DNA from: a virus
Virus record (IMG/VR): IMGVR_UViG_3300009100_000005
Strand: one strand, 5' to 3'
Length of the DNA stretch: 47,766 nt
Shown here piece after piece: positions 1,494 through 47,766 of this stretch. The notes under the pieces are model-generated. The model worked only from the letters and a program-made list of their open reading frames with translations, made no database searches and was not told the origin of the DNA. Position numbers and translations under genes: made by a program. How positions within the stretch are numbered: the first letter of the stretch is position 1; each line of letters begins with the position of its first letter.

Positions 1494-4400
1494 ATGCCAC
1501 AAAATGTCTATAAAGCGCAGTTGCCGGTCGAGACTGTGCCACAACCATATCAGGCTCAAGTTCCGTATGAAGCACAATTACCATCTGATGCGGAACCGGC
1601 ACAAGGTTGGGGTGGCGCAGTCCTCTCCACTATTGCTCCGGCATTAGAGTTTATCTCGCGTCCTCAGTATGCCTCAGCCAAGTTTGCCGATAGCTTGGCT
1701 GATCCGTCGAAGTCTATCTTCGATGCGATGCTTGGAGCATTTCAGGAGTTTGTTAGTCCGAAGGATAAACTTTCATACTCTGAAGTTATTAGACGTAGAG
1801 CGCCAGAGTTTGCAAAGATGTATCCTAAAGCTACTTCTGTTATAGGTTTTATGGGAGATGTAGCATTTGATCCAACTACCTATTTAGGTATTGGGTTTGC
1901 TCGACAAGGTTTAACCGTAGGTCGTAAAGTTCTTACAGAGTTTGGTGAACAAACTTTGCACAGACTTGAGAAAGATATAGCACAGCAAGAAATATTGACT
2001 ACGGTTAAGAACAAAGTGAGAACCAATGTTATTGAAGCGGAACGGAAAGGTATACAAGCTCAATCTAGTTTGTTTACTAAGACAGAAGCTAGGCAAAAGT
2101 ATGGCGAGGTTCGTAGTTCGTTCTTACAGGAATTTGATGAACTAGCCAAAGATCCTGAACTTATGCGTAAGCTTCAGAATGGTACTATTGCTAGAAGTCG
2201 AATGAATGATTTGGCTCTTGATGAGTTAAACTCTGCTGGTGCTAAGGCTAAGTTTTCAAAGACTGGATTAGTACAATTGAAAAGACAGAAACCTGTCGAG
2301 TCTGTGATTCGTAAGCTTGCGCCAGAGGAAGTTACCGAAAAGGCAAGCCAGCGTATTCAAAAGTTAGCTGATCTTGATCCTGTTATTGCCTCGAAGTATT
2401 TTAAGCCGCGAGAGATTAACCTTCTTATCGGTCTACCATTCGGTAAACAGAAAGAAGTGTTGAGAATAATGGGTCTTGATTATCTCGACAGCAAGATTGA
2501 TGCTATCGTCAAGTTTAGGGATATGATTGTAGGAAAGAATATTCCTGTAATCAGTGCTGCTCTTGGCGCAGGCATTAAAGCTGGCAGAATGGCAAAGAAT
2601 GCTTTTGTCAGACCAAACGAAGAGCCATACAAGAATGCTATTACCGCTCTTGAGAAAGCTAAAAACTATAACGTAGGAGAAGTACATCGAGAGATTGTCA
2701 AACTATTTGAAGGTGTTGATGAAGCAGGCCGACAAAAGATCAGCAAGCTTGGCGTCGCTATTGACGATGAAAGCAGAGAAGTCGAAGCAAGGATAGGTAG
2801 AAGTCTAACTCAGACAGAAGCAGACAGAATCTATAGGGATGAGCTTTCTAAAGTAACTTTAGCTCCGAAGGAGATGGCTGCTTTTGCTGGTTTGACTCAA
2901 TCATATAAGACAGCAATGGAACTTGAGATGGAAGCTGGACTTCTCAAGAGTGCATTGCTGAATTATTATCCTCGTTATTACAAAGCTTTGGCTGATCCTG
3001 GCGAGATGTCTGTTCTTTTCAAAACTAAAAAAGGATTGTCAACCTCCCTTTCTTCGTCAAAGAAAAGGGAGTTTTTAACTTTACAAGAAGCCGAAGCTAA
3101 TGGATTTGTTCCTGAATTGGATGCTGCCAAGATATACGCTGCTCGTGTTATATCTTCTCGTCGTGCCTTGTCAGTAAAGCAATTTGAAGATTCCTTGAAC
3201 GGCATCTACAACTTGCCACAAGGTACAAAGATTGGTAGCAAAGCATTTAACAAGGTTATCCCTTCTGAAATCAAAGACGATATCAGAACGTTAGGAGAGT
3301 CAGTTTACCCTAGTGGTATGAACTCCACTGTTAATGACTTCTTGTACGCATATGATAGGTTGATGGGATATTTCAGACAAGGTGCAACTATCTTAAAGCC
3401 AGCGTTTGCTGTCAAGCAATTGATTAGCAATACTATGCAAATGGCTTTTGGTACTAATGCTAAAGCCTTTAAGTCTATGGATGGTAGATCATTCCTCGAT
3501 GCATCTATGCTTCTTATGGACTATTACAGAGGCAAACCAATAGAAGGATTACCGGGAGTATTTAAAAGTATCTTGAACAAACATTCTCTATCTGGCGAAG
3601 GTGGCGTTGATGCCATTCTTGCTGGTAGGGTAGCTTTAGAAAGGTTGATTAAAGAAGATGATATTCAATCGTTTGCGAAAGCTATTGAAATCATCCAACC
3701 GTCTGGTATGCGGTATAGCGGGGTTGACGTTGTTCGTCTTGGTAGAGAACACGGAATGGTTGTCAACTTTGACGCATCTGGCGAACAAATGTTCAGGCAA
3801 GTAGATGAGATACTTTCCTATGATCCAAAAAATAAAGTAACTTTATCGAAAGAATTGTTCAAATATTGGAAGATGTCTTCCACGTTTGAAACATATTCTC
3901 GGATGTCTGGTTTCATCCAAGGTTTGCGTATGGGCTATTCGCCTAAGCAAGCTGCCGCTGTAGTCGAAGATAATCTCTTTGATTATCTACACGGTCTGAC
4001 TAAGATAGAGAAAAGTTTTATCAGACGGGTGATGCCATTCTATTCGTTCCAACGCTTTGCTATACCGCAAGTGCTAAGAACGTTAGTACGCCAACCGGGC
4101 AATGCTGCTACTACCAACAAGATAGTTAACTTGATGGAGAAGTTAATTGTACCGGATGCTGAGAAGATGTCGGAGGCTGAAAGGGAAACATTTGGTGATA
4201 CATTACTTGTCGAACAGCCTAGACTATTCACTGGTTTCGACAAAGAAGGTAGAGCCAACTTCAATATCTTCAACAACTTCTCCCCACTAGATGCTTTGTC
4301 TCTTATGGTATATGACCAGAAGACAGATAAACTTGACCTAGAAAGAACAGTTCAAAGAACTTTCTTGGCTGCTCTTGCACCATACCTTAAGATTCCACTT

Positions 4401-26194: not shown

Positions 26195-27391
26195 TTAGCT
26201 TTCCTGATCGTCCTCGTACTCCCACGAATTCAACTCGCCGTCGGATTCGTCGTCGTCGTGTGCGTCAGGATGCGTCCGCTCTAATTCAGCAGTATCGCCC
26301 TTGACGGTCGGAGGATTAGTAAGCTTGTCCATTTCCTTCTGTTCATTCGCAGCATTCAAAGCCGCCGCGCGCCGTTTATCGGCGAGGATTTCTTTCTTTG
26401 AACGGAAATCAATCGTTTTGATCCATTCCAAATCCTTACAAATAGCAAGAACTTCGGATTTGGAATAATGCTCTTTACCTAACAGAGCGCCGATAAACAT
26501 CTTGAATGGCAATGGAATCTGAATACCTACTTCGGACGCAAACATCTTTTTCAAGTCGTCACGGCTGAAAGCAGATTTCGGCGTTCCTTTGCCGCCGTCA
26601 GGTGAAGCCACTTGCTTCATATGTGAACGGACGGCATTGCGCGAAAGAGCCTTACCTTGTGTAACCATTTCATCGAGGATAGGCTGAACTTTTGCTTTCA
26701 GCTTGTTATCGTCGATTTTTTTGGTGGTTGGATCACGGAACGCATCAAGAAAGTCTTTTTGCGCAAACTGATCAGAACAAGTGTCGAGGGAAATAATCTC
26801 ATCCTTAACCAGGCTTGCCAAGTATGGCGACTCGTCAACACGCGCAACCTTTGAAATCCACATTTCAGATTTCTTGAGCAATTGCGCGATTTCCTTGTTT
26901 TTCTTGTTCATACCGCGAAATCCTCTGATATACGCGGCAATGGACATAAAAGACTCTTCCACGGTCTTATCATTGATGATAAATTGGGAAGCGAGAAGCT
27001 TATCCATTTCATCCTCTTTGATAACGCAAACGGGAAAGGTCTTATCAAGGAATAGTTGCTCACGTCTGCGAGCAACGTCTACCAGACCGCGACGTTGACG
27101 ACCGGAAATCAGGTAGAAATTACCATCTTTCCTCAGAAAACCTTGCGTCGGTACGCGAATGTAATTCTCTTTTATGTCGAGATACATTTCGGTAAGGTTA
27201 TCGTAAACCTCTTTCTTCAAAGACATTTTAGAGTCTTTGTCGAAATACATACGCTCCCAAATGGAAACGTACTCATCGCGTTCACTGCCAAGCTGCGGAA
27301 TGACATCCGTAGCAGATTTGACATTATCAAACGGAACGTTTACGAAATCGCCCGGTCGAATGATATTCTTTTGCGTCTTTTCTGTAGCCAT
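26195..27391 (-). CDS. ParB/KorB-like protein (ParB N-terminal domain plus HTH)
   Basis: Track ORF trimmed to ATG 27391 (AAGGAG SD); YLISGRQRRGL resembles the ParB GxRR box; NKEIAQLLKKSEMWISKV resembles the ParB HTH; acidic C-terminus. Confidence 0.55.
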   Translation of the reverse strand: MATEKTQKNIIRPGDFVNVPFDNVKSATDVIPQLGSERDEYVSIWERMYFDKDSKMSLKKEVYDNLTEMYLDIKENYIRVPTQGFLRKDGNFYLISGRQRRGLVDVARRREQLFLDKTFPVCVIKEDEMDKLLASQFIINDKTVEESFMSIAAYIRGFRGMNKKNKEIAQLLKKSEMWISKVARVDESPYLASLVKDEIISLDTCSDQFAQKDFLDAFRDPTTKKIDDNKLKAKVQPILDEMVTQGKALSRNAVRSHMKQVASPDGGKGTPKSAFSRDDLKKMFASEVGIQIPLPFKMFIGALLGKEHYSKSEVLAICKDLEWIKTIDFRSKKEILADKRRAAALNAANEQKEMDKLTNPPTVKGDTAELERTHPDAHDDDESDGELNSWEYEDDQES

Positions 27392-27417
27392 TTCTATTCT
27401 CCTTAAGGAAAAAAGGA

Positions 27418-27432
27418 CTAAAGTAACTTTAT
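27418..27432. repeat. palindrome variant CTAAAGTAACTTTAT
   Basis: Core exact; 26 nt upstream of the ParB-like ATG 27391. Confidence 0.9.
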
Positions 27433-27468
27433 TATTTGCTCTCAGGCACAAGCGTATGCGCCTTGCAA

Positions 27469-27483
27469 ATAAAGTAACTTTAG
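27469..27483. repeat. palindrome variant ATAAAGTAACTTTAG
   Basis: Core exact; upstream of the ParB-like gene. Confidence 0.9.
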
Positions 27484-27538
27484 TCAAATTGTCAAATATC
27501 TGATCTAAAAAAGAGCATACGCTCTAATTTAGTGGCTG

Positions 27539-32091: not shown

Positions 32092-32102
32092 AGTAACTTT
32101 AT
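32088..32102. repeat. palindrome variant CTAAAGTAACTTTAT
   Basis: Core exact; holds the upstream stop; its last two bases are the AT of terminase ATG 32101. Confidence 0.9.
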
Positions 32103-33984
32103 GGTTCGTAACGAAGTAGTAAAGAAATATCTGCCGAAGTTAATTGCTAGTTTTGCATTATACGCGAAGTTTAACCTTTGGATTACTGACAAGAAGATGC
32201 AACTTGTCAGGCTGGTTCTTAATAGAGCGCAGCGTTACGTAGTTCGGGAAATTCTGCGAAAGATCGCAGCGGGCATACCAGTCCGAATGTACGTGATCAA
32301 AGGTCGGCAGTTAGGCTTTACTACTTTGTTCACGGCCTTTATTTACTGGCTTTGTTCTTTGAATAAAAATAGGCGATTCCTCTTCGTTTCGCACGATATG
32401 GCGTCTGCCCAAAACATATGCGATAGGTTACAGAGCTACTATTACCATTCACATCCGGTATTACAACCGGAATTTAAGAAGATGAACCGAGAAATGGTTC
32501 ACTTTGCTACTCCTATTAAGAGTATCAATAATGGTAAAGAGGTCAGAAAAGACATAGGACTAGACTCCTTTATGATGGTGCGTACTGCCGATAATGAACA
32601 TCTCGGCAAGTCTTACACCTTCCAAGGAGCGCATCTGACCGAGTTTTGCTCGTGGCCTACACTTGGAATTGATGTTCCGAAGCGTATGATTTCGCTCCAA
32701 CAGGCGATTCCGAAGCTCCCGAATACCTTTATTTTCATCGAGAGTACGGCTCAAGGTGAGAATTATGGCAAGGAATTCTGGGATGATCCTGACAATGGGT
32801 ACGATAAGATATTCGTTTCGTGGCTTGCAGACGACGAATATAGAACTAAAGTTACTTTAGTAGATTACTTCGAGCTTTCTGTAAATCCTGAATCCAAGTA
32901 CGGAGATGAGATTTCAGAGCGAGAAAGAATCATATCGCAGCTTCAGTTCTGGTATCCAGAGATGGATTATTATAGCGAAAACTGTGATTTTCCAGATCAA
33001 GAAGGCGAAGATTACGAGGTTTGGCTGCAAAAAGAGTCAATGTGTCGGTTGCTCTGGCGTCGTGGGAAGATTGATACTGAATGTCTTGGCAACAAATGGG
33101 CATTCAAACAAGAGTATCCAACTATTCCCGAAGACGCTTGGGGTATGAAAACTCAATCCATCTTCTCCGCTCAACGATTGATTGAGATGGATGAGTATCG
33201 GAAGAAAGTACAAAAGCCAACACGCTATAGATATAGACACGACCATTCGGTTAGAGATTGTAACTTAAAGTTTCAAGAGCAATCGTATGGACACTTGCAA
33301 ATATTTAAACCACCTGAAAAGGAGAAGGTTTATGTCGCAGGCGCAGACGGGGCACAGGGAGTTAAAGGAGGTGATCACAGTTCGGTGGTGGTACTGGAAC
33401 TCCCCACTTTGGAAGAGGTTGCCACATTTAGCGATGTCATTCAGCCTGCCGAGTTCGCAGGTGTATGTAATTTTCTTGGCGAGTTGTACAACTGGTGCAA
33501 ACTCGGAGTCGAGCGAAACGACAAAGGAGGGTACGCAGCATTAGAGTATCTTCTGAAGAATTATCGGTATCCGAATCTTTACTACTATTTGCATCCATTT
33601 AAAGTTGCAATTAGTGGTGATGTGCAATGGGGTTATATCACTAATGATGACACAAAACAGATTATGGCTAGAGATGCTATGTACGCTGTTGACAATATGG
33701 ATGTTGTTGTTAACTCAGAAGAGTTGCTTTCGCAAATGAAATCCTTCGTGGAACATCCTAAGACGAAAGTGCTTGCGGCTTCTCCAGGTAAACACGATGA
33801 TATTGTTATGGCTTGGATGATTGCCATCCAAATGGCCAAGGACATTAAGATTCGTGCTTCTTCTCCGCCTCCGAAAACTGTCGGACTAACTCACGGTTAT
33901 ATGCGACAGCTAGTAGAGAAAAGAGATGGCAGAAGCAATTATGAGCGAGCCTTGAACAAACAAAGACGTAGGATTTCGTACTAA
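32101..33984 (+). CDS. terminase large subunit
   Basis: Walker-A-like VIKGRQLGFTT, FIESTAQGENYG, nuclease-domain GKHDDIVMAWMIA; 627 aa; directly upstream of the portal region. Confidence 0.88.
   Translation: MVRNEVVKKYLPKLIASFALYAKFNLWITDKKMQLVRLVLNRAQRYVVREILRKIAAGIPVRMYVIKGRQLGFTTLFTAFIYWLCSLNKNRRFLFVSHDMASAQNICDRLQSYYYHSHPVLQPEFKKMNREMVHFATPIKSINNGKEVRKDIGLDSFMMVRTADNEHLGKSYTFQGAHLTEFCSWPTLGIDVPKRMISLQQAIPKLPNTFIFIESTAQGENYGKEFWDDPDNGYDKIFVSWLADDEYRTKVTLVDYFELSVNPESKYGDEISERERIISQLQFWYPEMDYYSENCDFPDQEGEDYEVWLQKESMCRLLWRRGKIDTECLGNKWAFKQEYPTIPEDAWGMKTQSIFSAQRLIEMDEYRKKVQKPTRYRYRHDHSVRDCNLKFQEQSYGHLQIFKPPEKEKVYVAGADGAQGVKGGDHSSVVVLELPTLEEVATFSDVIQPAEFAGVCNFLGELYNWCKLGVERNDKGGYAALEYLLKNYRYPNLYYYLHPFKVAISGDVQWGYITNDDTKQIMARDAMYAVDNMDVVVNSEELLSQMKSFVEHPKTKVLAASPGKHDDIVMAWMIAIQMAKDIKIRASSPPPKTVGLTHGYMRQLVEKRDGRSNYERALNKQRRRISY
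32846..32860. repeat. junction palindrome CTAAAGTTACTTTAG
   Basis: Exact; inside the large terminase gene (RTKVTLVD). Confidence 0.95.
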
Positions 33985-34245: not shown

Positions 34246-36093
34246 ATGTCACCGTTAGAACAAGAAGCAAAAACAGGAGCAGATGCATACAACCTGTGGG
34301 CCGCTAGGATTCAAACGGCCATCTTCTGGCGTGCGAATCTGTGGAACGGTGACGCTCTCTGGAAGCGAGCATACCGGGATTACAAAGGTATGCAGTGGAA
34401 CGAGATGGTAGATGAAGGCCAGGATAAGGCATCGGATAATCCGGCAGATCAGATTACGATCAATATCCTGGCTTCTCAGATAATGACTCTTGCTCCATTT
34501 CTGGTTAATACAAATCCTGAGTACAAGGGTAAGGCCAGAAAGCCGGATGGTTATGTATCGTCAATGATTCAAGAAGCGGTACTTAACTACGAATGCGATA
34601 GAAAGAAAGTCTTCGATCAATTGCTGAAATCTGTTTACGATGATCTTATCATCGGTCACGGTGTAGCCAAAACGGGATTCACCCGTAAGATTGACGAAGC
34701 GACATTAGCTGCTGCTGGCGATATAGTTTATGAGGATTATATTGCTGATGAGTCAGTCTATGCAAAAAGAGTCAGACCGTTCGATTTTTTCTTTGATCCA
34801 AATGCCTCTGAGCGTAACTTGGAGACGGCAAGGTGGTGTTGTGAACGTTACTACAAATATGCAACAGACGTTGCGGTTAATGATGCTTACAAGTCGTCAG
34901 TTACTCGCAAGTTGCGTAGTGGTGAATACAAGCTCAACACTAAAAACCTTGTCTACCCTGAGTACAGCAGTGATCAGGTGCCAGGATATCCAAGCGGAGC
35001 TACTGAAGAGACATACATCAATCCAGAATCTGAGCTTGCGATTCTGTATGAGATTTGGGATAAGAAGCATAACAAGTATTACGTATTTGCTGATGGCGTG
35101 CCTGAGCCTTTGCTTGAGGCGAGGTCGCCATACGACTACTTGAAGGGAGAATTCCCCTATAAGAAAGTTGATTTTGTTCTGTTGCCTGACGAATGGTATG
35201 GTGTTGGTGTACACTATATGATCCAAGATCAGGCATATGAATTGAACCGACACAGAACGTTTAGCTTCCATCACAGACGCAGATTTTCTGCTAGAAAGTA
35301 TGAAGCTTTAAACTCAATAGAGAATGACGAACTTGAAAAGCTTGCTGGCGGTGAAGATGGGGCATACATAAAAGTTCCTGCAACTGGATCGGTTAAGCCT
35401 ATCGAAGATGTTCCTATGCCACAAGATTATATCTTGGTGGAACAACTGATTAAGGCTGATATCGAAACAATGACTGGCGTGGATCAATTGATTCGTGGTG
35501 GTCAACTTCCAAGCAGAACAACTGCCGGTGAAGTAGGGACAAGAGTTAACGTCTTTACTTCTAAGCTTGCGCACAAGATTAAATCGGTTGACGATTTCTA
35601 TCTTGGAATAGGAATGCAGCTAAATACTCATATTGCTGCCAACTATTCAAGGTCGCAAGTTGTACGTGTTGTCGGTGCCCAAGGTGAGTTCTTTGTTGAA
35701 TACTCTCCACAAGACCTCAAGGATGAAATCATCATTGAGATGGAGACTATCAGCGCGCCTAAGTATGATCCGGCTGTTGATAAGAATCAGCGTATACAGT
35801 TGTTTCAGATCATTGCTCAGATGTGGCAGACAGCTATGCAAGCTGGACAACAGTTACCGATTAACTTTCAAGAGTTGTTTAAATGGGTCATTGAGGCGTT
35901 TGATTATAAGGATATTGGTAGGTTCTTTGCTCCGGCGAATCAACCTATTCAACCTCCACAAGTAATTACGTCTAGTCAGTTGGGACAACAGTTACCACAA
36001 CAACAGACAATGAATTCGCAAGACTTGTTAAGACAAATTTCTGGCCAAGCAACTGCTGCTGGTGGCCAAAACGGAAATCCATCAGGAATTTAG
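34246..36093 (+). CDS. putative portal protein
   Basis: 615-aa ORF downstream of the terminase and upstream of scaffold/capsid; Gln-rich C-terminus; call rests on position and size. Confidence 0.6.
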   Translation: MSPLEQEAKTGADAYNLWAARIQTAIFWRANLWNGDALWKRAYRDYKGMQWNEMVDEGQDKASDNPADQITINILASQIMTLAPFLVNTNPEYKGKARKPDGYVSSMIQEAVLNYECDRKKVFDQLLKSVYDDLIIGHGVAKTGFTRKIDEATLAAAGDIVYEDYIADESVYAKRVRPFDFFFDPNASERNLETARWCCERYYKYATDVAVNDAYKSSVTRKLRSGEYKLNTKNLVYPEYSSDQVPGYPSGATEETYINPESELAILYEIWDKKHNKYYVFADGVPEPLLEARSPYDYLKGEFPYKKVDFVLLPDEWYGVGVHYMIQDQAYELNRHRTFSFHHRRRFSARKYEALNSIENDELEKLAGGEDGAYIKVPATGSVKPIEDVPMPQDYILVEQLIKADIETMTGVDQLIRGGQLPSRTTAGEVGTRVNVFTSKLAHKIKSVDDFYLGIGMQLNTHIAANYSRSQVVRVVGAQGEFFVEYSPQDLKDEIIIEMETISAPKYDPAVDKNQRIQLFQIIAQMWQTAMQAGQQLPINFQELFKWVIEAFDYKDIGRFFAPANQPIQPPQVITSSQLGQQLPQQQTMNSQDLLRQISGQATAAGGQNGNPSGI

Positions 36094-36095
36094 GA

Positions 36096-36110
36096 CTAAA
36101 GTTACTTTAG
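36096..36110. repeat. junction palindrome CTAAAGTTACTTTAG
   Basis: Exact; 13 nt upstream of ATG 36124. Confidence 0.95.
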
Positions 36111-36123
36111 TCGAAAGGGAGAT

Positions 36124-36621
36124 ATGAAAAATCTATTCGCGGTTCTTAGTTTGGTTCTGGCGTTTGGTGTAGTAGCGAACGCTCAACAGTTTCGATTTAA
36201 CGTTTCTGCTCTTAATAAGGAGCAGTATAGACCGGAGGCACTGAATCCGAAAAATATCGTCGAGTACGCGCAAGCCGTTTCTGCCGAGGTTGAAGCAAGG
36301 GCTGTCCAAGCTGGCGAGTTTAGCTTTGCCGGTGTTGGAACTTATCAGCGAGACTTTAGTAACGATCTTAACACTGTTCTGGTCGGAGCAAGATTGAGAT
36401 ATAAGAAAAGTTTCTTCAGTCCGTTTGCAAGTTTTCACGTTGGATACGAGTCGGCGGATGGTCTTGAGAAAGAGTTCTGCCGTGAAATCCAATTCGGCGC
36501 AGACCTTGACTTCGGACGATTCACCGTTCGGCCTTTGGCCTATGGCCAGAAGCGAAAGGGCGCATTGCTATCGCCTGCCGAGAATAGATTCTATTCCGGC
36601 ATTGGTATCAATATTAAATAA
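36124..36621 (+). CDS. secreted outer-membrane beta-barrel protein (OmpX/OmpW-size moron)
   Basis: Signal peptide MKNLFAVLSLVLAFGVVANA/QQ; 165 aa with alternating hydrophobic strands; sits between the portal gene and the tRNA island. Confidence 0.55.
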   Translation: MKNLFAVLSLVLAFGVVANAQQFRFNVSALNKEQYRPEALNPKNIVEYAQAVSAEVEARAVQAGEFSFAGVGTYQRDFSNDLNTVLVGARLRYKKSFFSPFASFHVGYESADGLEKEFCREIQFGADLDFGRFTVRPLAYGQKRKGALLSPAENRFYSGIGINIK

Positions 36622-36626
36622 GTTAT

Positions 36627-36703
36627 GTCGGGTGGTGTATGACGCACGCTCTCCATTCCTGAAAGGAGGGAAGAGTAGGGTTTAAATCCCTGCCCCGATG
36701 CCA
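36627..36703 (+). ncRNA. tRNA-like element with encoded CCA but no canonical D-arm (possible pseudo-tRNA, GAA-type loop)
   Basis: Acceptor GTCGGGT / CCCCGAT (one G-U, one mismatch); T-arm TAGGG-TTTAAAT-CCCTG; 5-nt variable region; loop CTGAAAG; 3' G-CCA at 36700-36703. Confidence 0.25.
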
Positions 36704-36911
36704 AGCTAGCCGTCTTATTCTCCGTCTTCCTGTTCTCGAAAGAGTACCAACGGAGTTGGCGGCTACCATTGGGCCGAACCGCTGTGTTATGTGGCAGCGC
36801 TAGGCGACAGAGGGCATAGGCCACGTAACGTCTATGCCCTCCAGTTCAGGAGCGAATGCTCGTAGGAACTACATTCTATCATTCTGAATGTTTCTACACC
36901 TCTAGTCGCTC
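36704..36911 (+). ncRNA. densely structured non-coding segment (nested helices, GAAA tetraloop)
   Basis: Pairings: TAGCCG 36707-12 / CGGCTA 36760-65; CTCCGT 36720-25 / ACGGAG 36750-55; CTC-GAAA-GAG 36735-44; CGCTG 36780-84 / CAGCG 36795-99; AGGGCATAG 36811-19 / CTATGCCCT 36832-40; GGAGCGA 36849-55 / TCGCTCC 36906-12. Confidence 0.35.
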
Positions 36912-36926
36912 CTAAAGTTACTTTAG
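36912..36926. repeat. junction palindrome CTAAAGTTACTTTAG
   Basis: Exact; ends 1 nt before tRNA-Tyr. Confidence 0.95.
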
Positions 36927-36927
36927 T

Positions 36928-37013
36928 GCCATTGTTGGGAAGTTGGTATCCCGACCCGTCTGTAAAACGGGTGTTCTTGACAGGACGTGAGAGTTCGAGT
37001 CTCTCCAATGGCA
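36928..37013 (+). tRNA. tRNA-Tyr (anticodon GTA), class II with long variable arm
   Basis: Acceptor GCCATTG / CAATGGC; D-arm GGGA-AGTTGGTA-TCCC; anticodon arm CCCGT-CTGTAAA-ACGGG; 17-nt variable arm; T-arm GAGAG-TTCGAGT-CTCTC; discriminator A; no encoded CCA; starts 1 nt after motif 36912-36926. Confidence 0.85.
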
Positions 37014-37037
37014 TAGGGCGAATGCTTTAGGGAGTAC

Positions 37038-37119
37038 ATCCTAAACTTTAGGTCGTTGGTTCGAGTCCAACCCCGTGCCCATTTTATGGTACGGGTAGCT
37101 CAGTTGGCAGAGCGAAAGT
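37038..37119 (+). tRNA. circularly permuted (3' half before 5' half) tRNA-Arg(CCT)-like gene
   Basis: 3' half is 37038-37079: loop ATCCTAA, ACTTT, variable AGGTC, T-arm GTTGG-TTCGAGT-CCAAC, acceptor CCCGTGC. 5' half is 37089-37119: GTACGGG-TA-GCTC-AGTTGGCA-GAGC-G-AAAGT. All four stems form only when the halves are joined in permuted order. Confidence 0.5.
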
Positions 37120-37214
37120 GTTATCTCTCTATTACTCTTGTCGCCCTTAAGTTTGAGACGAATCTCAAATACTTGTCGTCTCAATTAGTTTCTGGCGTAA
37201 ATGCCAGATAAGAG

Positions 37215-37229
37215 CTAAAGTAACTTTGG
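37215..37229. repeat. degenerate copy CTAAAGTAACTTTGG
   Basis: One mismatch; followed by TGCC, as is copy 36912. Confidence 0.6.
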
Positions 37230-37239
37230 TGCCCTCTCG

Positions 37240-37254
37240 CTAAAGTTACTTTAG
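37240..37254. repeat. junction palindrome CTAAAGTTACTTTAG
   Basis: Exact; 23 nt upstream of ATG 37278; enclosed by the CCCTCTC/GAGAGGG stem. Confidence 0.95.
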
Positions 37255-37277
37255 CTTCTGATAGAGAGGGTAATACT

Positions 37278-37802
37278 ATGCCAATGTATGAATTTTATTG
37301 CGAGTGTTGCAAAAATAGATGGGAAGAGTGGTATCCCTGGAAGCATAATGATGGTGTCACCTATACGGATGATCCCACTATGCAGGAGTGCCACGAGGAT
37401 TCTGAGCATAAGGTAGAATTCCTTGATTCTCTTTACTCTCCACGACCAGATGATATGTGGATGGGAGTAATGACAGACGTAGGATACTTTACTGATAAAA
37501 AGAAATGGGATGATGCAAGACATCGTGATAGATTTGGCAATAAGCGTGAGTTGTACGATGTGACTAATAGAGGTGATCGTGAGTACCTTACTAAACACGT
37601 CGAGAGGGAAAAGAAAGAGCAAGAAGAGAAAGATTTTAATCAGATTGAAAAGGTTGTTGCTAAGAATGTTATGGATCACGATTTTAGTCCTGACAATACT
37701 CATATCATTCGAGGTCAGCCTGAAGCCTTTGCCGAAGATGTGGATATTGTCGAAATGAAACAAGACGGTTTTACCGAACAGCAAATCGCTGCTTACAAGT
37801 AA
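37278..37802 (+). CDS. FmdB-type zinc-ribbon protein
   Basis: N-terminal MPMYEFYCECCKNRWE matches the MPxYEYxCxxCG FmdB/CxxC_CxxC_SSSS pattern; its SD GAGAGGG can pair with CCCTCTC 37232-37238. Confidence 0.55.
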   Translation: MPMYEFYCECCKNRWEEWYPWKHNDGVTYTDDPTMQECHEDSEHKVEFLDSLYSPRPDDMWMGVMTDVGYFTDKKKWDDARHRDRFGNKRELYDVTNRGDREYLTKHVEREKKEQEEKDFNQIEKVVAKNVMDHDFSPDNTHIIRGQPEAFAEDVDIVEMKQDGFTEQQIAAYK

Positions 37803-37811
37803 GGAGGCGTT

Positions 37812-38429
37812 ATGGGTGGATATGTCCATTATGATAGAATTGATGTGGGTTATCCAAAACCACAAACAATCATTTCAGATTCATTGAAGAAAGAGTTTAA
37901 TGATATGCCGGAAGATCGCAAGGAAAAAGTTATCAATCTTCTCCAAGCTAAGATTCGTCTGCTTGAGCAGAAGTGGATTGCTGATGTGAATATGTATGAG
38001 ACTCAGCAAGCAGAGGAAGATCGTAAATTCTTTCTCCATTATCGCAAGCCTACTAAACTAGAGCGAGAGGTGTTGATGAATGCCAGTGATAACATCGATG
38101 AGGTACTTCCGTATAAGCCTGTCGAAGATACTATCAAGAGAAACATCTTTGATAGGAGTGCTGCGTTTGACAGTCTGTTTGGTCTGAAAACTGATACAGT
38201 GTGTATGGGTCACGATGATGATCTATACGAATCTTTGGATATGACTCCCGTAGAGCCATTACCGACTAAAGTAACTTTAGTTGAGCAGCTCAACAAAGAA
38301 TTGGATCAGCTGACTATGCTCGTCGAAAGGATGGGTAATGTTTGTATTGTCGTTAATAAGAGAACACATAATATCGTATACAGTAACGAAACTGAAGATA
38401 CGGTAACAATCACATTCGAGAGGAAGTAA
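37812..38429 (+). CDS. hypothetical protein
   Basis: 205-aa ORF with an AAGGAGG SD; internal motif at 38266. Confidence 0.65.
   Translation: MGGYVHYDRIDVGYPKPQTIISDSLKKEFNDMPEDRKEKVINLLQAKIRLLEQKWIADVNMYETQQAEEDRKFFLHYRKPTKLEREVLMNASDNIDEVLPYKPVEDTIKRNIFDRSAAFDSLFGLKTDTVCMGHDDDLYESLDMTPVEPLPTKVTLVEQLNKELDQLTMLVERMGNVCIVVNKRTHNIVYSNETEDTVTITFERK
38266..38280. repeat. junction palindrome CTAAAGTAACTTTAG
   Basis: Exact; inside 37812-38429. Confidence 0.95.
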
Positions 38430-39248: not shown

Positions 39249-40295
39249 ATGCCGAACGTAAACTTCGAGCAATTGGCAACGACCACGTTGCGTCTGCACA
39301 GACCCGAACTTGCCGATAATATCACCGGCAAGAACGCGGCTATTGTTCAAATGAAACAGCGTGGTTTCGTTGAGGAAGAGGAAGGCGCTCTTTCCTACAA
39401 CGAACCCATCCTGTTTGACGAGAACAGTACAACTGGTTCCTATCGAGATTGGGACCCAATTGATCTGACTCCGCAAGACGGTATGACCAACGCTGAGTTC
39501 TTGATTGCTCAGCTTGCAGGATCTTTGATGATTTCTGGTCGTCAGGAGTTCATCAACAGCGGTAATCGTACCCGTATCATCAATCTTCTTACAGCCAAGA
39601 CGATGCAGCTTCAGAAGTCCCTGACTCTGCTCGTTAACCGTCAGTCCCACGGTGACGGTACTGGAAATAGCGGTAAAGACCTGACTGGCTTCGCTGCCCT
39701 AGTTGAGAGCGGTGCGGGTGGTCTGTGGTCTGTCGTTGGTGGCATTGACTCCCAAACTGATGTTTGGTGGAGGAATCAATGGCTAGACTTCGACGTTGCT
39801 TTGACCAGTGCTGCCGGTCTTTCCTTTGGTAACGTCCAAGATATGGCTGAGTTCCGCCGTTTCGTAACCACAATGGTTAACGCTGCGATGCGTAACTCTG
39901 AGCGTACTACGCTTCTTCTGTCAGACCAGATGGTTCACGAGTATATGGAATCCACCATTACTCAGAACGAACGGTATGTCAAAGAAGGTTCGATGGCTGA
40001 TGCTAATCTGGCTAACGCTGGATTCGTCAACATCTTCTTCAAAAACATTCCCTGGGTGATGGATGACGATATGCCTGGATTCTCTTTGGTTGCCGGTTCT
40101 GACAATCACGAAATCCTTGGTCTGAACAACGACTTTCTCCATCTTAAGATTGGTAAAGGCAAGAACTTCGTCGTGACTCCTTTCGTCCGTCCGCCTGACA
40201 AAGACGGTAAGGTTGCACAAGTCCTGTTCTACGCTAACTATACGATTGCGAATCGTCAGCGTCAGTTCAGAATTGATAACATTGACTTCGCATAA
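39249..40295 (+). CDS. putative major capsid protein
   Basis: 348-aa ORF following the scaffold-like gene; size, position and composition are typical of HK97-fold capsid proteins; not verified by homology. Confidence 0.65.
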   Translation: MPNVNFEQLATTTLRLHRPELADNITGKNAAIVQMKQRGFVEEEEGALSYNEPILFDENSTTGSYRDWDPIDLTPQDGMTNAEFLIAQLAGSLMISGRQEFINSGNRTRIINLLTAKTMQLQKSLTLLVNRQSHGDGTGNSGKDLTGFAALVESGAGGLWSVVGGIDSQTDVWWRNQWLDFDVALTSAAGLSFGNVQDMAEFRRFVTTMVNAAMRNSERTTLLLSDQMVHEYMESTITQNERYVKEGSMADANLANAGFVNIFFKNIPWVMDDDMPGFSLVAGSDNHEILGLNNDFLHLKIGKGKNFVVTPFVRPPDKDGKVAQVLFYANYTIANRQRQFRIDNIDFA

Positions 40296-42469: not shown

Positions 42470-42772
42470 ATGGCATTTGGATCAGGCAACTTAAACCTCG
42501 TTGACAGCGACGGAGCTAAGCATCTCGATCAGATCATAACTCCAACAGGATCATCGTTTACATACGTTAAGATTAGCGCTATTAAGATTGGTGCCAAAGA
42601 TGCTGGTGCAATCGTAGTAGGCGCTACTGGTCTAACAGGATCTAACTACGGATATGCTATTAAAGTGGGAGAAAGCTTGGAACTTATATTCCAAACTGCT
42701 GTCGCTGCTGCTCAGATATTCGTAAGAAATCCTGATACGACTTCGGTTAAGGTGGCAGTAATCGGGGGCTAA
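42470..42772 (+). CDS. hypothetical protein
   Basis: 100-aa ORF with a GGGAG SD; stop lies in motif 42769. Confidence 0.55.
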   Translation: MAFGSGNLNLVDSDGAKHLDQIITPTGSSFTYVKISAIKIGAKDAGAIVVGATGLTGSNYGYAIKVGESLELIFQTAVAAAQIFVRNPDTTSVKVAVIGG

Positions 42773-42783
42773 AGTAACTTTAG
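42769..42783. repeat. junction palindrome CTAAAGTAACTTTAG
   Basis: Exact; holds the upstream stop; 2 nt upstream of ATG 42786. Confidence 0.95.
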
Positions 42784-46708: not shown

Positions 46709-47683
46709 ATGGCGTTGAATGCCTTTCAAACAGAAGTCCAAAAGCTTGCCAAAAAGCTAGGACTGCAAGGCTCTGACGAACAGAGAGTTTACGCCAGTCC
46801 TGAGTATAGCCAATTGGTCGGCAAGTATTTTGGCCAGATTGACTTACCGGCAGGAGTTACCGAAGATATGGTAACTTTCAGAACTCCTTTCGGTATTGAG
46901 TATAAAGATCAATATGGCTACATCCATAAGCTCGAAAGGAATATGGATGCCAGATCGCCACAACTTGGTCAAGTTAATGAGAAGACTACTGATCGCCCTG
47001 CCATACTCCCACTAGAGAAGACAAACCCTGGGATAGCAGAAGCGATGAAGCTTTTGACTGAGAGAACATCTCAGCCTATGTCGTCAGGATTGCCTAAGCT
47101 TGATCCAGATACTCTGGCAGAATTGCAAGCTATAGCTAAGGGCAATCAAGATCAGCTTGACCAGTTGTTCGAGAGGGGCAGAGGCGATCTGATTACTGGT
47201 TTGTATGGTAGTGGCAATAACCGTTCTACTCTGGCTAATGATGCTTCTGCTAGGTTACTGCAAGAACAAGGTATAGTTCAATCTGATAAACTTGGTAAGG
47301 ATGCCGAAAGAGAATTGGCAGCTAGGGCAGGATCGAGAGATGCAGCAATAAACTTGAGAGGTCAAGATATTCAATACTTGATGGGATTGCTTGGTCAAGA
47401 TACTGCTCGTGCTGTTCCTTCTGCTCAATTGTCTCAACAGCAATCTGAATTGAGAGAGAACTCAAGACAGTTCGATTTACAATATTTGTTAGAGCAAGAG
47501 AAGATGAAGCAGCAACAGCGTAGTGGTCTTATGAGTGCATTGGCTGGAATTGCTAGTGCTGGTCTATCGTTGATACCGGGTGTTGGTCCAATCTTAGGTG
47601 CTGCTTCTAGCTCTATCTTTGGTGGATTAACCGGAGGAAAAGCCGGACGACCGCCAGTAGGTGGCGATGGTGGGTACGGCTAA
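46709..47683 (+). CDS. hypothetical protein with Gly-rich hydrophobic C-terminus; putative internal virion protein
   Basis: 324-aa ORF; ATG 9 nt after motif 46685-46699 with GGAGG; the C-terminal SGLMSALAGIASAGLSLIPGVGPILGAASS segment runs into the terminal overlap. Confidence 0.65.
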   Translation: MALNAFQTEVQKLAKKLGLQGSDEQRVYASPEYSQLVGKYFGQIDLPAGVTEDMVTFRTPFGIEYKDQYGYIHKLERNMDARSPQLGQVNEKTTDRPAILPLEKTNPGIAEAMKLLTERTSQPMSSGLPKLDPDTLAELQAIAKGNQDQLDQLFERGRGDLITGLYGSGNNRSTLANDASARLLQEQGIVQSDKLGKDAERELAARAGSRDAAINLRGQDIQYLMGLLGQDTARAVPSAQLSQQQSELRENSRQFDLQYLLEQEKMKQQQRSGLMSALAGIASAGLSLIPGVGPILGAASSSIFGGLTGGKAGRPPVGGDGGYG

Positions 47684-47766
47684 AACTAAAGTAACTTTAG
47701 TAGGAGAATGATATGCAAAATGAAGAAGAGCTGAGACAAATCCTAGCTGGATTACAAGAAAGGCAA
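47644..47766. repeat. terminal overlap, identical to 1-123
   Basis: Same 123 nt as the window start; genome unit is 47,643 bp. Confidence 0.9.
47686..47700. repeat. junction palindrome CTAAAGTAACTTTAG
   Basis: Exact; the same physical copy as 43-57 (terminal overlap). Confidence 0.95.

What the first reader, a model, noticed from the sequence alone, without database searches (positions are those of the whole stretch)
37014..37147. A tRNA-Arg(CCU)-like gene in circularly permuted order (3' half upstream of 5' half) with base-pairing flanks
Segment 37038-37079 reads as follows: anticodon loop ATCCTAA (U33, anticodon CCT, A37), ACTTT, 5-nt variable AGGTC, canonical T-arm GTTGG-TTCGAGT-CCAAC, then acceptor 3' strand CCCGTGC. 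After a 10-nt linker (ccattttatg), segment 37089-37119 reads GTACGGG-TA-GCTC-AGTTGGCA-GAGC-G-AAAGT. That is an acceptor 5' strand that pairs with CCCGTGC (one G-U), U8, a canonical D-arm, and an anticodon-stem 5' strand complementary to ACTTT. All four cloverleaf stems form perfectly, but only if the downstream segment is treated as the 5' half. No complementary partners exist in the normal order. The outer flanks also pair with each other: AGGGCGA 37015-37021 with TCGCCCT 37141-37147, and GAGTA 37032-37036 with TACTC 37133-37137. This would bring the two open ends of the anticodon loop together. Permuted tRNA genes are established in the red alga Cyanidioschyzon merolae and a few other algae, where they mature through a circular intermediate. 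Split tRNAs are known in Nanoarchaeum. I know of none in bacteria or phages. A permuted intron-exon (self-splicing) arrangement, or ligation by a host RtcB-type ligase, would be a possible maturation route.
Basis: partly seen in the sequence, partly recalled or inferred. Interest (0 to 1): 0.85.

Follow-up and report, generated by a model that had tools for sequence, protein, structure and literature searches.

The report
Phage Y RNA mimicking a tRNA
The "scrambled tRNA-Arg gene" is real as a sequence pattern, but it is a YrlA-type bacterial Y RNA, a known small RNA whose middle imitates a tRNA and whose paired ends bind the Ro60 protein; the unusual point is that this phage has no Ro60 gene of its own.

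Summary
Joining 37089-37119 to 37038-37079 gives a sequence that ARAGORN calls tRNA-Arg(CCU), and the outer flanks pair.

The interpretation does not hold. The element at 37014-37148 (+) is a YrlA-type Y RNA, a family described in 2014 in bacteria and phages. It has:
- the Ro60-binding motif GNCGAAN0-1G in a terminal stem;
- the conserved UAC kink;
- a T arm placed 5' of a D arm;
- a closed 7-bp acceptor-like stem.

Rfam YrlA matches full length (59.8 bits, E=1.4e-12, below the gathering score of 69). A covariance model built from 40 other YrlA-like elements scores it at 102.9 bits (E=1.3e-27).

The 7-nt "anticodon loop" is not conserved in homologues. No ligase, intron or bulge-helix-bulge motif is present.

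The element belongs to a small cluster: a short Y RNA (36848-36913), tRNA-Tyr (36927-37014), YrlA, and a minimal Ro-stem hairpin (37154-37183, weak).

The genome is a complete circular assembly and encodes no Ro60. Published phage Y RNAs, and most of the relatives found here, sit beside a Ro60 gene. The phage's closest relatives lack the cluster.

Verdict: a new member of a known kind, of modest interest.

The parts
37014..37148 (+). YrlA-type Y RNA, whole element
   Evidence: Rfam RF02553 matches model positions 1-114 of 114 at 59.8 bits, E=1.4e-12. Own model R1, built without the window, matches positions 1-131 of 131 at 102.9 bits, E=1.3e-27.
37015..37024 (+). 5' strand of the terminal stem P1 (AGGGCGA 37015-37021), overlapping the Ro60-binding motif GNCGAAN0-1G (GGCGAAUG, 37017-37024)
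   Evidence: Read from the sequence. The motif is defined in PMC4201824. These columns are invariant in alignment A4.
37141..37147 (+). 3' strand of P1 (UCGCCCU), preceded by the conserved CUUG
   Evidence: Pairs with 37015-37021 in the MFE fold. P1 pairs covary in A4.
37028..37037 (+). 5' strand of stem P2 (UAGGGAG 37028-37034), then the conserved UAC (37035-37037) that corresponds to the YUAY kink motif
   Evidence: MFE fold. P2 pairs covary in A4 and UACA is invariant. The kink role of UA is described in bioRxiv 10.1101/312249.
37125..37131 (+). 3' strand of P2 (CUCUCUA)
37038..37054 (+). Either ACUUU 37045-49 pairs with AAAGU 37115-19, or a local hairpin forms at 37040-37052.
   Evidence: The two folds differ by about 4.5 kcal/mol. 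A 5-bp stem in this register occurs in 11 of 124 homologues against 1.1 expected, and it covaries. The loop is not conserved.
37055..37071 (+). T arm (GUUGG-UUCGAGU-CCAAC)
37072..37095 (+). Acceptor-like stem (CCCGUGC / GUACGGG, 7 bp, plus a possible C37079-G37088 pair), closed by a loop rather than having free ends
   Evidence: The 7-bp stem covaries strongly in A4.
37096..37119 (+). UA linker, D arm (GCUC-AGUUGGCA-GAGC), G, then AAAGU
36927..37014 (+). Ordinary tRNA-Tyr(GUA) with a long variable arm. Its 3' end abuts the YrlA 5' end.
   Evidence: ARAGORN. Rfam tRNA at 49.8 bits.
36848..36913 (+). Short Y RNA: P1 GGAGCGA/UCGCUCC with GCGAAUG, P2 GUAGGAAC/GUUUCUAC and CUACAU. A short hairpin replaces the tRNA-like domain.
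   Evidence: R1 gives 41.1 bits, E=6.8e-10 over the whole window. The fold z-score is -4.47. The same 65-75 nt class lies beside YrlAs in other loci.
37154..37183 (+). Minimal hairpin holding only the Ro-type stem (GAGACGA AUCUCAAAUACUUG UCGUCUC). Weak candidate.
   Evidence: R1 with filters off gives 16.7 bits, E=1.3e-4 over 901 nt. The fold z-score is -3.24.
37213..37257 (+). 20-bp hairpin made of two inverted copies of the genome's junction palindrome. It lies between the RNA cluster and ORF 37278.
   Evidence: Fold at -36.6 kcal/mol, z = -5.3. Palindrome hits at 37215 and 37240.

Best explanation
The element at 37014-37148 is a phage-encoded YrlA-type Y RNA.

Shown here:
- Its two ends pair into a stem that carries the Ro60-binding motif GNCGAAN0-1G.
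- A second stem and the conserved UAC lead into a tRNA-shaped module: variable region, T arm, closed 7-bp acceptor-like stem, D arm. The nucleotides needed for the tRNA elbow are present (U8, A14, G18 G19, G15:C48, U54-A58).
- It is one of two, possibly three, RNAs with a Ro-type stem clustered around a tRNA-Tyr, in the structural-gene block of a complete 47.6-kb podovirus-like genome that has no Ro60 gene.

Inferred:
- The cluster is read through from the upstream late genes, since no sigma-70-like promoter was found on this strand.
- tRNA processing cuts the transcript: RNase P at the tRNA-Tyr 5' end, and 3' processing of tRNA-Tyr one base before the Y RNA stem.
- The Y RNAs then bind the host's Ro60 (Rsr). 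They either tether it through the tRNA-like module to an effector such as PNPase, or occupy it as gates or sponges. Either way the phage would bend host RNA decay and repair to its own use.
- Because the acceptor-like stem has 7 bp, RNase P cleavage in the closing loop followed by CCA repair is possible, as shown for Mycobacterium smegmatis YrlA.

It is not a gene for a decoding tRNA-Arg.
For: - Rfam YrlA matches full length, E=1.4e-12.
- Model R1, built from 40 bacterial, phage and metagenomic YrlA-like elements without the window, scores it at 102.9 bits, E=1.3e-27. That is within the range of those elements themselves.
- 24 of the 30 model pairs show compensatory changes.
- All motifs of the published definition are present.
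- Homologues found by DNA pattern lie directly beside Ro60 genes (TROVE plus vWA_Ro60 domains) in L007, L018, L019, L026, L035, L037 and L038, and near RtcB in L040.
- More than 120 bacterial loci carry the same GCGAAUGC...UACAU...GGUUCGA architecture.
- Short Y RNAs accompany YrlAs in many of these loci, as they do here.
- A phage Ro60 with phage Y RNA-like RNAs and host PNPase forms a RYPER-like complex (PMC12135203).
Against: - The Rfam score is below the curated gathering score (59.8 against 69). Ro60-adjacent phage copies also score below it, at 32-65 bits.
- No Ro60 is encoded in the genome. This was tested with Pfam on all ORFs of at least 110 aa, and with tblastn and an HMM built from four phage Ro60s. 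The binding partner must therefore be a host protein.
- The host is unknown. The nearest cultured-phage terminase is 27% identical.
- Expression, processing and Ro60 binding are all untested.
- The element is known only from this one phage (three assemblies, identical sequence where the element is covered). Selection on this particular copy therefore cannot be shown.
Confidence: 0.85

Rival explanations
1. It is a true circularly permuted tRNA-Arg(CCU) gene. The transcript is circularised or trans-ligated at the anticodon loop and opened at the acceptor end, giving a decoding tRNA.
For: The rejoined halves make a complete cloverleaf with a 7-nt loop, U33 and A37. AGG makes up 15% of the phage's Arg codons. 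The 7-bp acceptor stem could be an RNase P substrate.
Against: - The flanks are the conserved Ro60-binding module of a known RNA family.
- Homologues with the same stems have 5-16 nt of non-anticodon-like sequence in the loop position. The UAC just before it is the family's conserved kink motif.
- There is no bulge-helix-bulge motif (sequence).
- Rfam finds no group I intron at E up to 10.
- Pfam finds no RtcB, Rnl or kinase domain in any ORF of at least 110 aa.
- AGA, not AGG, is the dominant Arg codon.
- A competing local hairpin is at least as stable as the anticodon stem.
Confidence: 0.03
2. It is a decaying remnant of two tandem tRNA genes (3' part of one, spacer, 5' part of the next) with no function.
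For: YrlAs are proposed to have arisen from dimeric tRNA transcripts. The element sits next to a tRNA. The closest relatives of the phage lack it.
Against: A remnant would not carry an intact GNCGAAN0-1G stem, P2, the UAC motif and every tRNA tertiary-contact nucleotide, nor score 102.9 bits on a family model. It is also accompanied by a second RNA, and possibly a third, with the same Ro-type stem.
Confidence: 0.03
3. It is a YrlA homologue that works without Ro60. It could act as a tRNA-shaped decoy for host tRNA-directed enzymes or defence nucleases, or as a signal that interferes with the RtcR-controlled RNA-repair response.
For: There is no Ro60 gene in a complete genome. The tRNA mimic is unusually complete, with a 5-bp anticodon-stem analogue and a 7-nt loop-like bulge. 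Nicked or damaged tRNAs regulate the rsr-yrlBA-rtcBA operon (abstracts of PMC7790460 and PMC10159003).
Against: The Ro60-binding stem is kept intact in two RNAs, and possibly a third, of the cluster, which argues that Ro60 binding matters. There is no direct evidence for any decoy target.
Confidence: 0.09

Closest known systems
Salmonella Typhimurium YrlA (Rfam RF02553; crystal structure of the tRNA-like domain, PDB 6CU1 as cited in bioRxiv 10.1101/312249)
   Same: A terminal stem with GNCGAAN0-1G, a second stem, the YUAY/UA kink, a T arm 5' of the D arm, a closed acceptor-like stem and conserved tertiary-contact nucleotides. The model aligns full length.
   Different: Salmonella YrlA has a 6-bp acceptor-like stem and a 3-4-bp anticodon-stem analogue, and it lies in the rsr-yrlBA-rtcBA operon. 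The window copy has 7 bp and 5 bp, carries about 10 extra nt after UAC, scores below the Rfam gathering score, and has no Ro60 or RtcB gene nearby.
Mycobacterium smegmatis YrlA (PMC4201824)
   Same: [quoted passage not shown]
   Different: It is encoded just upstream of the cell's own Ro60. Cleavage of the window RNA is untested.
Phage Y RNAs encoded beside phage Ro60 (mycobacteriophages, Caulobacter phage CcrColossus, Bacillus phage G, Thermus phage phiLo Yrl1/Yrl2; PMC4201824, PMC12135203)
   Same: They are phage-borne Y RNA-like genes, often several per locus. In the IMG/VR and metagenome loci fetched here, such genes are often embedded in tRNA clusters beside a Ro60 gene.
   Different: Every published case, and most loci found here, have a Ro60 gene within about 4 kb. 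This complete 47.6-kb genome has none.
Circularly permuted tRNA genes of Cyanidioschyzon merolae and other algae (from my own knowledge)
   Same: The 3' half is encoded upstream of the 5' half, and the acceptor strands are joined by a short linker.
   Different: Those genes carry a bulge-helix-bulge motif at the termini, are cut by the tRNA splicing endonuclease, pass through a circular intermediate and yield decoding tRNAs. Here the termini form a Ro60-binding stem, no such motif is present, and the bacterial-type tRNA-Tyr points to a bacterial host.
Two-piece, circularly permuted tmRNA genes of Alphaproteobacteria and some cyanobacteria (from my own knowledge)
   Same: A bacterial precedent for a tRNA-like domain encoded in permuted order.
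   Different: tmRNA has a tag reading frame and free, aminoacylatable ends. ARAGORN finds no tmRNA in the window.

Membership tests
YrlA Y RNA family (sequence and structure homology) | Match to the curated Rfam model RF02553 at or above its gathering score | tested here: inconclusive
   The match is full length at 59.8 bits, E=1.4e-12, but the gathering score is 69. YrlA-like RNAs in viral contigs also fall below it, at 32-65 bits, including the two copies beside the Ro60 gene in L007 (50.3 and 42.2 bits). The cutoff is therefore conservative for this clade.
YrlA Y RNA family (sequence and structure homology) | GNCGAAN0-1G motif near the 5' end, within a stem formed with the 3' end | tested here: met
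   GGCGAAUG at 37017-37024. P1 is 37015-37021 / 37141-37147. The definition is in PMC4201824.
YrlA Y RNA family (sequence and structure homology) | tRNA-like domain with the T arm 5' of the D arm, separated by a closed acceptor-like stem-loop | tested here: met
   T arm 37055-37071, acceptor-like stem 37072-37095, D arm 37098-37113.
YrlA Y RNA family (sequence and structure homology) | Conserved YUAY/UA kink motif between the second stem and the variable region | tested here: met
   GUAC at 37034-37037. UACA is invariant in 40 homologues. The first position is G here rather than a pyrimidine.
YrlA Y RNA family (sequence and structure homology) | Nucleotides for tRNA tertiary contacts (U8, A14, G18 G19, 15:48 Levitt pair, U54-A58, C56) | tested here: met
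   U37096, the D loop AGUUGGCA, G15 with C48 of AGGUC, and the T loop UUCGAGU are read directly from the sequence. The criteria come from PMC4201824.
YrlA Y RNA family (sequence and structure homology) | Scores as a member on an independent covariance model of the family | tested here: met
   R1, built from 40 sequences without the window, gives 102.9 bits, E=1.3e-27, and is the top hit in 47.8 kb.
Y RNA (functional definition) | Encoded within about 4 kb of a Ro60 ortholog and on the same strand (the operational criterion of Chen et al. 2014) | tested here: not met
   No TROVE or vWA_Ro60 domain was found in any ORF of at least 110 aa. tblastn and an HMM from four phage Ro60s gave nothing better than E=0.24. 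The genome is a complete circular assembly.
Y RNA (functional definition) | Bound by Ro60 in vivo | not testable with these tools
   This needs immunoprecipitation or EMSA with the host Rsr. The host is unknown.
Circularly permuted tRNA gene (algal type) | 3' half upstream of 5' half, with rejoining giving a full cloverleaf | tested here: met
   ARAGORN calls tRNA-Arg(cct) on the rejoined sequence.
Circularly permuted tRNA gene (algal type) | Bulge-helix-bulge motif formed by the transcript termini at the junction | tested here: not met
   The strands between the anticodon-stem analogue and P2 are 10 nt (UACAUCCUAA) and 5 nt (GUUAU). There is no 3-nt bulge / 4-bp helix / 3-nt bulge.
Circularly permuted tRNA gene (algal type) | Anticodon loop conserved among homologues | tested here: not met
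   Homologues with the same 5-bp stem have 5-7 nt after UAC with no U33/A37 pattern, apart from one other 7-nt case. Others have longer inserts or a hairpin.
Permuted intron-exon (group I) arrangement | Group I intron halves flanking the exons | tested here: not met
   cmscan of 36000-37900 at E up to 10 finds no intron family. Only 24 nt separate tRNA-Tyr from the 3' half.
Two-piece permuted tmRNA | tRNA-like domain plus a tag-peptide reading frame | tested here: not met
   ARAGORN and Rfam find no tmRNA in the window.

The most novel reading that the evidence does not exclude
A phage with no Ro60 gene carries its own small battery of Ro60-binding RNAs: a full YrlA, a short Y RNA and possibly a bare Ro stem, co-transcribed with a tRNA. 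It would use them to capture or retarget the host's Ro60/PNPase RNA-surveillance machinery, or the unusually complete tRNA mimic would serve as a decoy for tRNA-directed host defences. This would be the first case of "orphan" viral Y RNAs acting on a host protein.
Probability: 0.3. Interest if true: 0.55.

Novelty: new member of a known kind. Interest (0 to 1): 0.3.

Why it matters
It removes an apparent first (a permuted tRNA gene in a phage) by placing the element in a family known since 2014.

What remains of interest:
- Y RNA genes can travel without Ro60, as a compact cassette with a tRNA, into a small podovirus-like genome whose relatives lack them. This suggests that phages may manipulate host Ro60-dependent RNA decay or repair with RNA alone.
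- Published searches for bacterial Y RNAs looked only in genomes that encode Ro60, so such orphan copies would have been missed.
- The curated Rfam threshold misses the YrlA-like copies found here in viral contigs (32-65 bits against 69).

Tried and rejected
- An exact 46-nt junction search in IMG/VR found nothing. A portal-based locus search in IMG/VR also found nothing.
- blastn against cultured phages gave only a 69-nt hit in Klebsiella phage KP13-26. This led to a separate side observation.
- A literature search for "permuted tRNA" plus "phage" found no phage case.
- Group I intron, permuted intron-exon and tmRNA readings were rejected on the Rfam and ARAGORN results.
- A phage-encoded ligase route was rejected because no RtcB, Rnl or kinase domains were found.
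- I tried to decide between the 5-bp anticodon-stem analogue and the local hairpin at 37040-37052. The energies are too close (-44.5 against -49.0 kcal/mol) and the homologues are split between the two architectures, so this is unresolved.
- Host inference failed. The terminase search found no relative above 27% identity among cultured phages.
- Codon usage (AGG is 15% of Arg) was uninformative.

Full report
**Observation**

In genomic order, ARAGORN and Rfam's tRNA model find only an ordinary tRNA-Tyr(GTA) at 36927-37014. When 37089-37119 is placed in front of 37038-37080, ARAGORN calls a tRNA-Arg(cct) with all four stems. The outer flanks AGGGCGA / TCGCCCT pair in the minimum-free-energy fold, which is 4 standard deviations more stable than shuffles.

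Folding and comparison both give UAGGGAG 37028-37034 with CUCUCUA 37125-37131.

**Identity**

A permissive Rfam scan of 36000-37900 matches RF02553, YrlA ("Y RNA-like"), at 37015-37150 over the whole model: 59.8 bits, E=1.4e-12, against a gathering score of 69.

YrlA RNAs were described by Chen et al. 2014 (PMC4201824). Their features are:
- a GNCGAAN0-1G motif near the 5' end that marks the Ro60 (Rsr) binding site;
- a conserved YUAY;
- a central domain in which a T arm precedes a D arm, with a closed "acceptor" stem-loop between them;
- an optional "V" hairpin upstream of the T arm.

The crystal structure shows a genuine tRNA L-shape with a kink at the conserved UA and no anticodon loop. The family is proposed to descend from dimeric tRNA transcripts (bioRxiv 10.1101/312249).

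The window element has GGCGAAUG at 37017-37024, UAC at 37035-37037, the T and D arms, UA at positions 8-9, G18 G19, G15 with C48, and a closed 7-bp acceptor-like stem. So the "permuted tRNA with pairing flanks" is the standard anatomy of this family.

**Independent test**

DNA-pattern scans for GCGAATGC...TACAT...GGTTCGA found the following:
- about 17 such elements in IMG/VR contigs;
- 9 metagenome contigs;
- more than 120 bacterial genome loci across Acidobacteriota, Planctomycetota, Verrucomicrobiota and Proteobacteria, often in tandem.

Forty of these, without the window, align well. RNAalifold gives P1, P2, the T stem, a 7-bp acceptor stem and the D stem, with compensatory changes in 24 of 30 pairs. 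The covariance model built from them (R1) scores the window element at 102.9 bits, E=1.3e-27, full length. This is the best hit in 47.8 kb and lies within the range of the family's own members.

Many homologues lie directly next to Ro60 genes with TROVE and vWA_Ro60 domains (L007, L018, L019, L026, L035, L037, L038) or near RtcB (L040). That confirms these are Y RNA loci. In viral contigs these RNAs score only 32-65 bits on the Rfam model, including the two copies beside the Ro60 gene in L007 (50.3 and 42.2 bits). The sub-threshold Rfam score therefore reflects a conservative cutoff.

**The "anticodon" part**

I parsed 124 homologues by their T arm, acceptor stem and D arm. A 5-bp stem in the tRNA anticodon-stem register is perfect in 11, against 1.1 expected when partners are swapped. 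It covaries (CUCAU/AUGAG, UCUGC/GCAGA, CCUGG/CCAGG, ACUUU/GAAGU), so this stem is real for a subset that includes the window.

The strand between UAC and that stem is 5-7 nt in those members and has no conserved U33/A37 pattern. Other members have a small hairpin or longer inserts there.

In the window a local hairpin (CCUAA-ACU-UUAGG, 37040-37052) competes with the stem. Energies are -49.0 kcal/mol against -44.5 with the stem forced. I could not decide between them.

Either way, a 7-nt "anticodon loop" reading CCU is a peculiarity of this copy, not a family feature.

**Surroundings**

The window is a complete circular assembly. The first 123 nt equal the last 123 nt, giving a unique length of 47,643. 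Independent assemblies of 47.6-47.8 kb start at different points.

It is a podovirus-like phage with these genes:
- P22-type portal, 34246-36093;
- SU10-type adaptor;
- major head protein, 39249-40295;
- terminase, 32101-33984;
- family A DNA polymerase;
- primase-helicase.

The 656-nt gap between ORF 36124-36621 and ORF 37278-37802 holds the RNA cluster. R1 also finds a short Y RNA at 36848-36913 (41.1 bits, E=6.8e-10). It has P1 with GCGAAUG, P2 and CUACAU, but a short hairpin in place of the tRNA-like domain. This 65-75 nt class recurs beside YrlAs elsewhere.

With filters off there is also a weak third hit at 37154-37183, which is only a Ro-type stem (16.7 bits, E=1.3e-4).

tRNA-Tyr sits between the short Y RNA and YrlA, and its discriminator base is one nucleotide from P1. 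Its long variable arm is the bacterial type (my own knowledge), so the host is a bacterium.

No sigma-70-like promoter or intrinsic terminator was found on the + strand.

**No Ro60**

- Pfam found no TROVE, vWA_Ro60, DUF2828, RtcB, RNA ligase or polynucleotide kinase domain in any ORF of at least 110 aa.
- tblastn and an HMM from four phage Ro60s gave nothing better than E=0.24.
- The closest relatives of the phage (portal 53-63% identical; L004-L006) have only about 100 nt at this position and no Y RNA or tRNA. The cluster is therefore an acquisition of this lineage.
- The nearest YrlA sequences are 65-70% identical and come from tRNA-array contigs with Ro60.

**Mechanism**

Shown: the family membership, the architecture, the cluster and the absence of Ro60.

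Inferred:
- The cluster is co-transcribed with the late genes and cut out by tRNA processing enzymes.
- The RNAs bind the host's Rsr through the GNCGAA stem. They then either tether it to an effector through the tRNA-like elbow, as in the Rsr-Y RNA-PNPase complex, or gate or sequester it (PMC4201824; PMC12135203).
- RNase P cleavage of the 7-bp acceptor-like stem with CCA repair is plausible by analogy with M. smegmatis YrlA.

**Rivals**

- A decoding permuted tRNA: about 3%.
- A dead tandem-tRNA remnant: about 3%.
- A Ro60-independent tRNA decoy: about 9%.

**Comparison and novelty**

Published phage Y RNAs are all reported beside a phage Ro60 gene, and the 2014 survey searched only genomes that encode Ro60. 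A complete phage genome with two, possibly three, Ro-type RNAs and no Ro60 is therefore a new situation for a known family, not a new kind of element. The interest is modest.

Noticed in passing
whole window, e.g. 1470-1484, 36096-36110, 36912-36926, 37215-37229, 37240-37254, 42769-42783: The 15-nt palindrome CTAAAGT(A/T)ACTTTAG occurs 70 times with up to 2 mismatches, against 0.32 expected. That is about one per gene junction in both gene blocks. It often supplies the stop codon of the upstream ORF. Related phages carry symmetric variants: CTAGAGTWACTCTAG in L004/L005 and CTGAAGTWACTTCAG in L006. This fits a hairpin, or a dimeric-protein site co-evolving with its reader.
   Followed up: partly
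37041-37051: The stretch read as the anticodon loop and stem (CTAAA-C-TTTAG) carries both 5-nt arms of the genome's junction palindrome, with a shortened centre. It is the only CTAAA-N(1-3)-TTTAG in the genome, against 0.47 expected genome-wide. Whether this is chance or a captured junction element is unresolved.
   Followed up: partly
L034 (Klebsiella phage KP13-26, OP617743.1) 2971-3093 and 3130-3237: Two unannotated tRNA-like modules in the same permuted order (T arm, closed stem, D arm), but without the GNCGAA motif. They lie in a tRNA cluster just downstream of a 476-aa DUF2828/DUF7788 protein with a weak vWA_Ro60 match. Rfam YrlA gives 40 and 32 bits; R1 gives 52.9 and 31.5 bits.
   Followed up: partly
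L035-L043 (metagenome contigs), L009, L014, L030, L039: YrlA-like and short Y RNA genes occur in multiple copies inside large tRNA gene arrays (7-23 tRNAs per 2-10 kb). Some have Ro60 or RtcB genes in the gaps. L010 has a YrlA next to a tmRNA gene.
   Followed up: partly
36810-36841: A 10-bp hairpin, GAGGGCAUAG...CUAUGCCCUC, lies just upstream of the short Y RNA. There is also a weak R1 hit at 36638-36717 (5.6 bits, E=0.2) in the otherwise unexplained 225 nt after ORF 36124-36621.
   Followed up: no
1-123 and 47644-47766: The first and last 123 nt are identical, so the window is a circular (or terminally redundant) complete assembly of 47,643 unique bases.
   Followed up: yes
leftward gene block, about 5.3-24.9 kb: Among the smaller ORFs, one has an SPFH/Band 7 domain and one is a pentapeptide-repeat protein. 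The call reports family counts only, so I did not assign either to an ORF. The 430-aa ORF at 26195-27487 has a weak ParB-like match.
   Followed up: no
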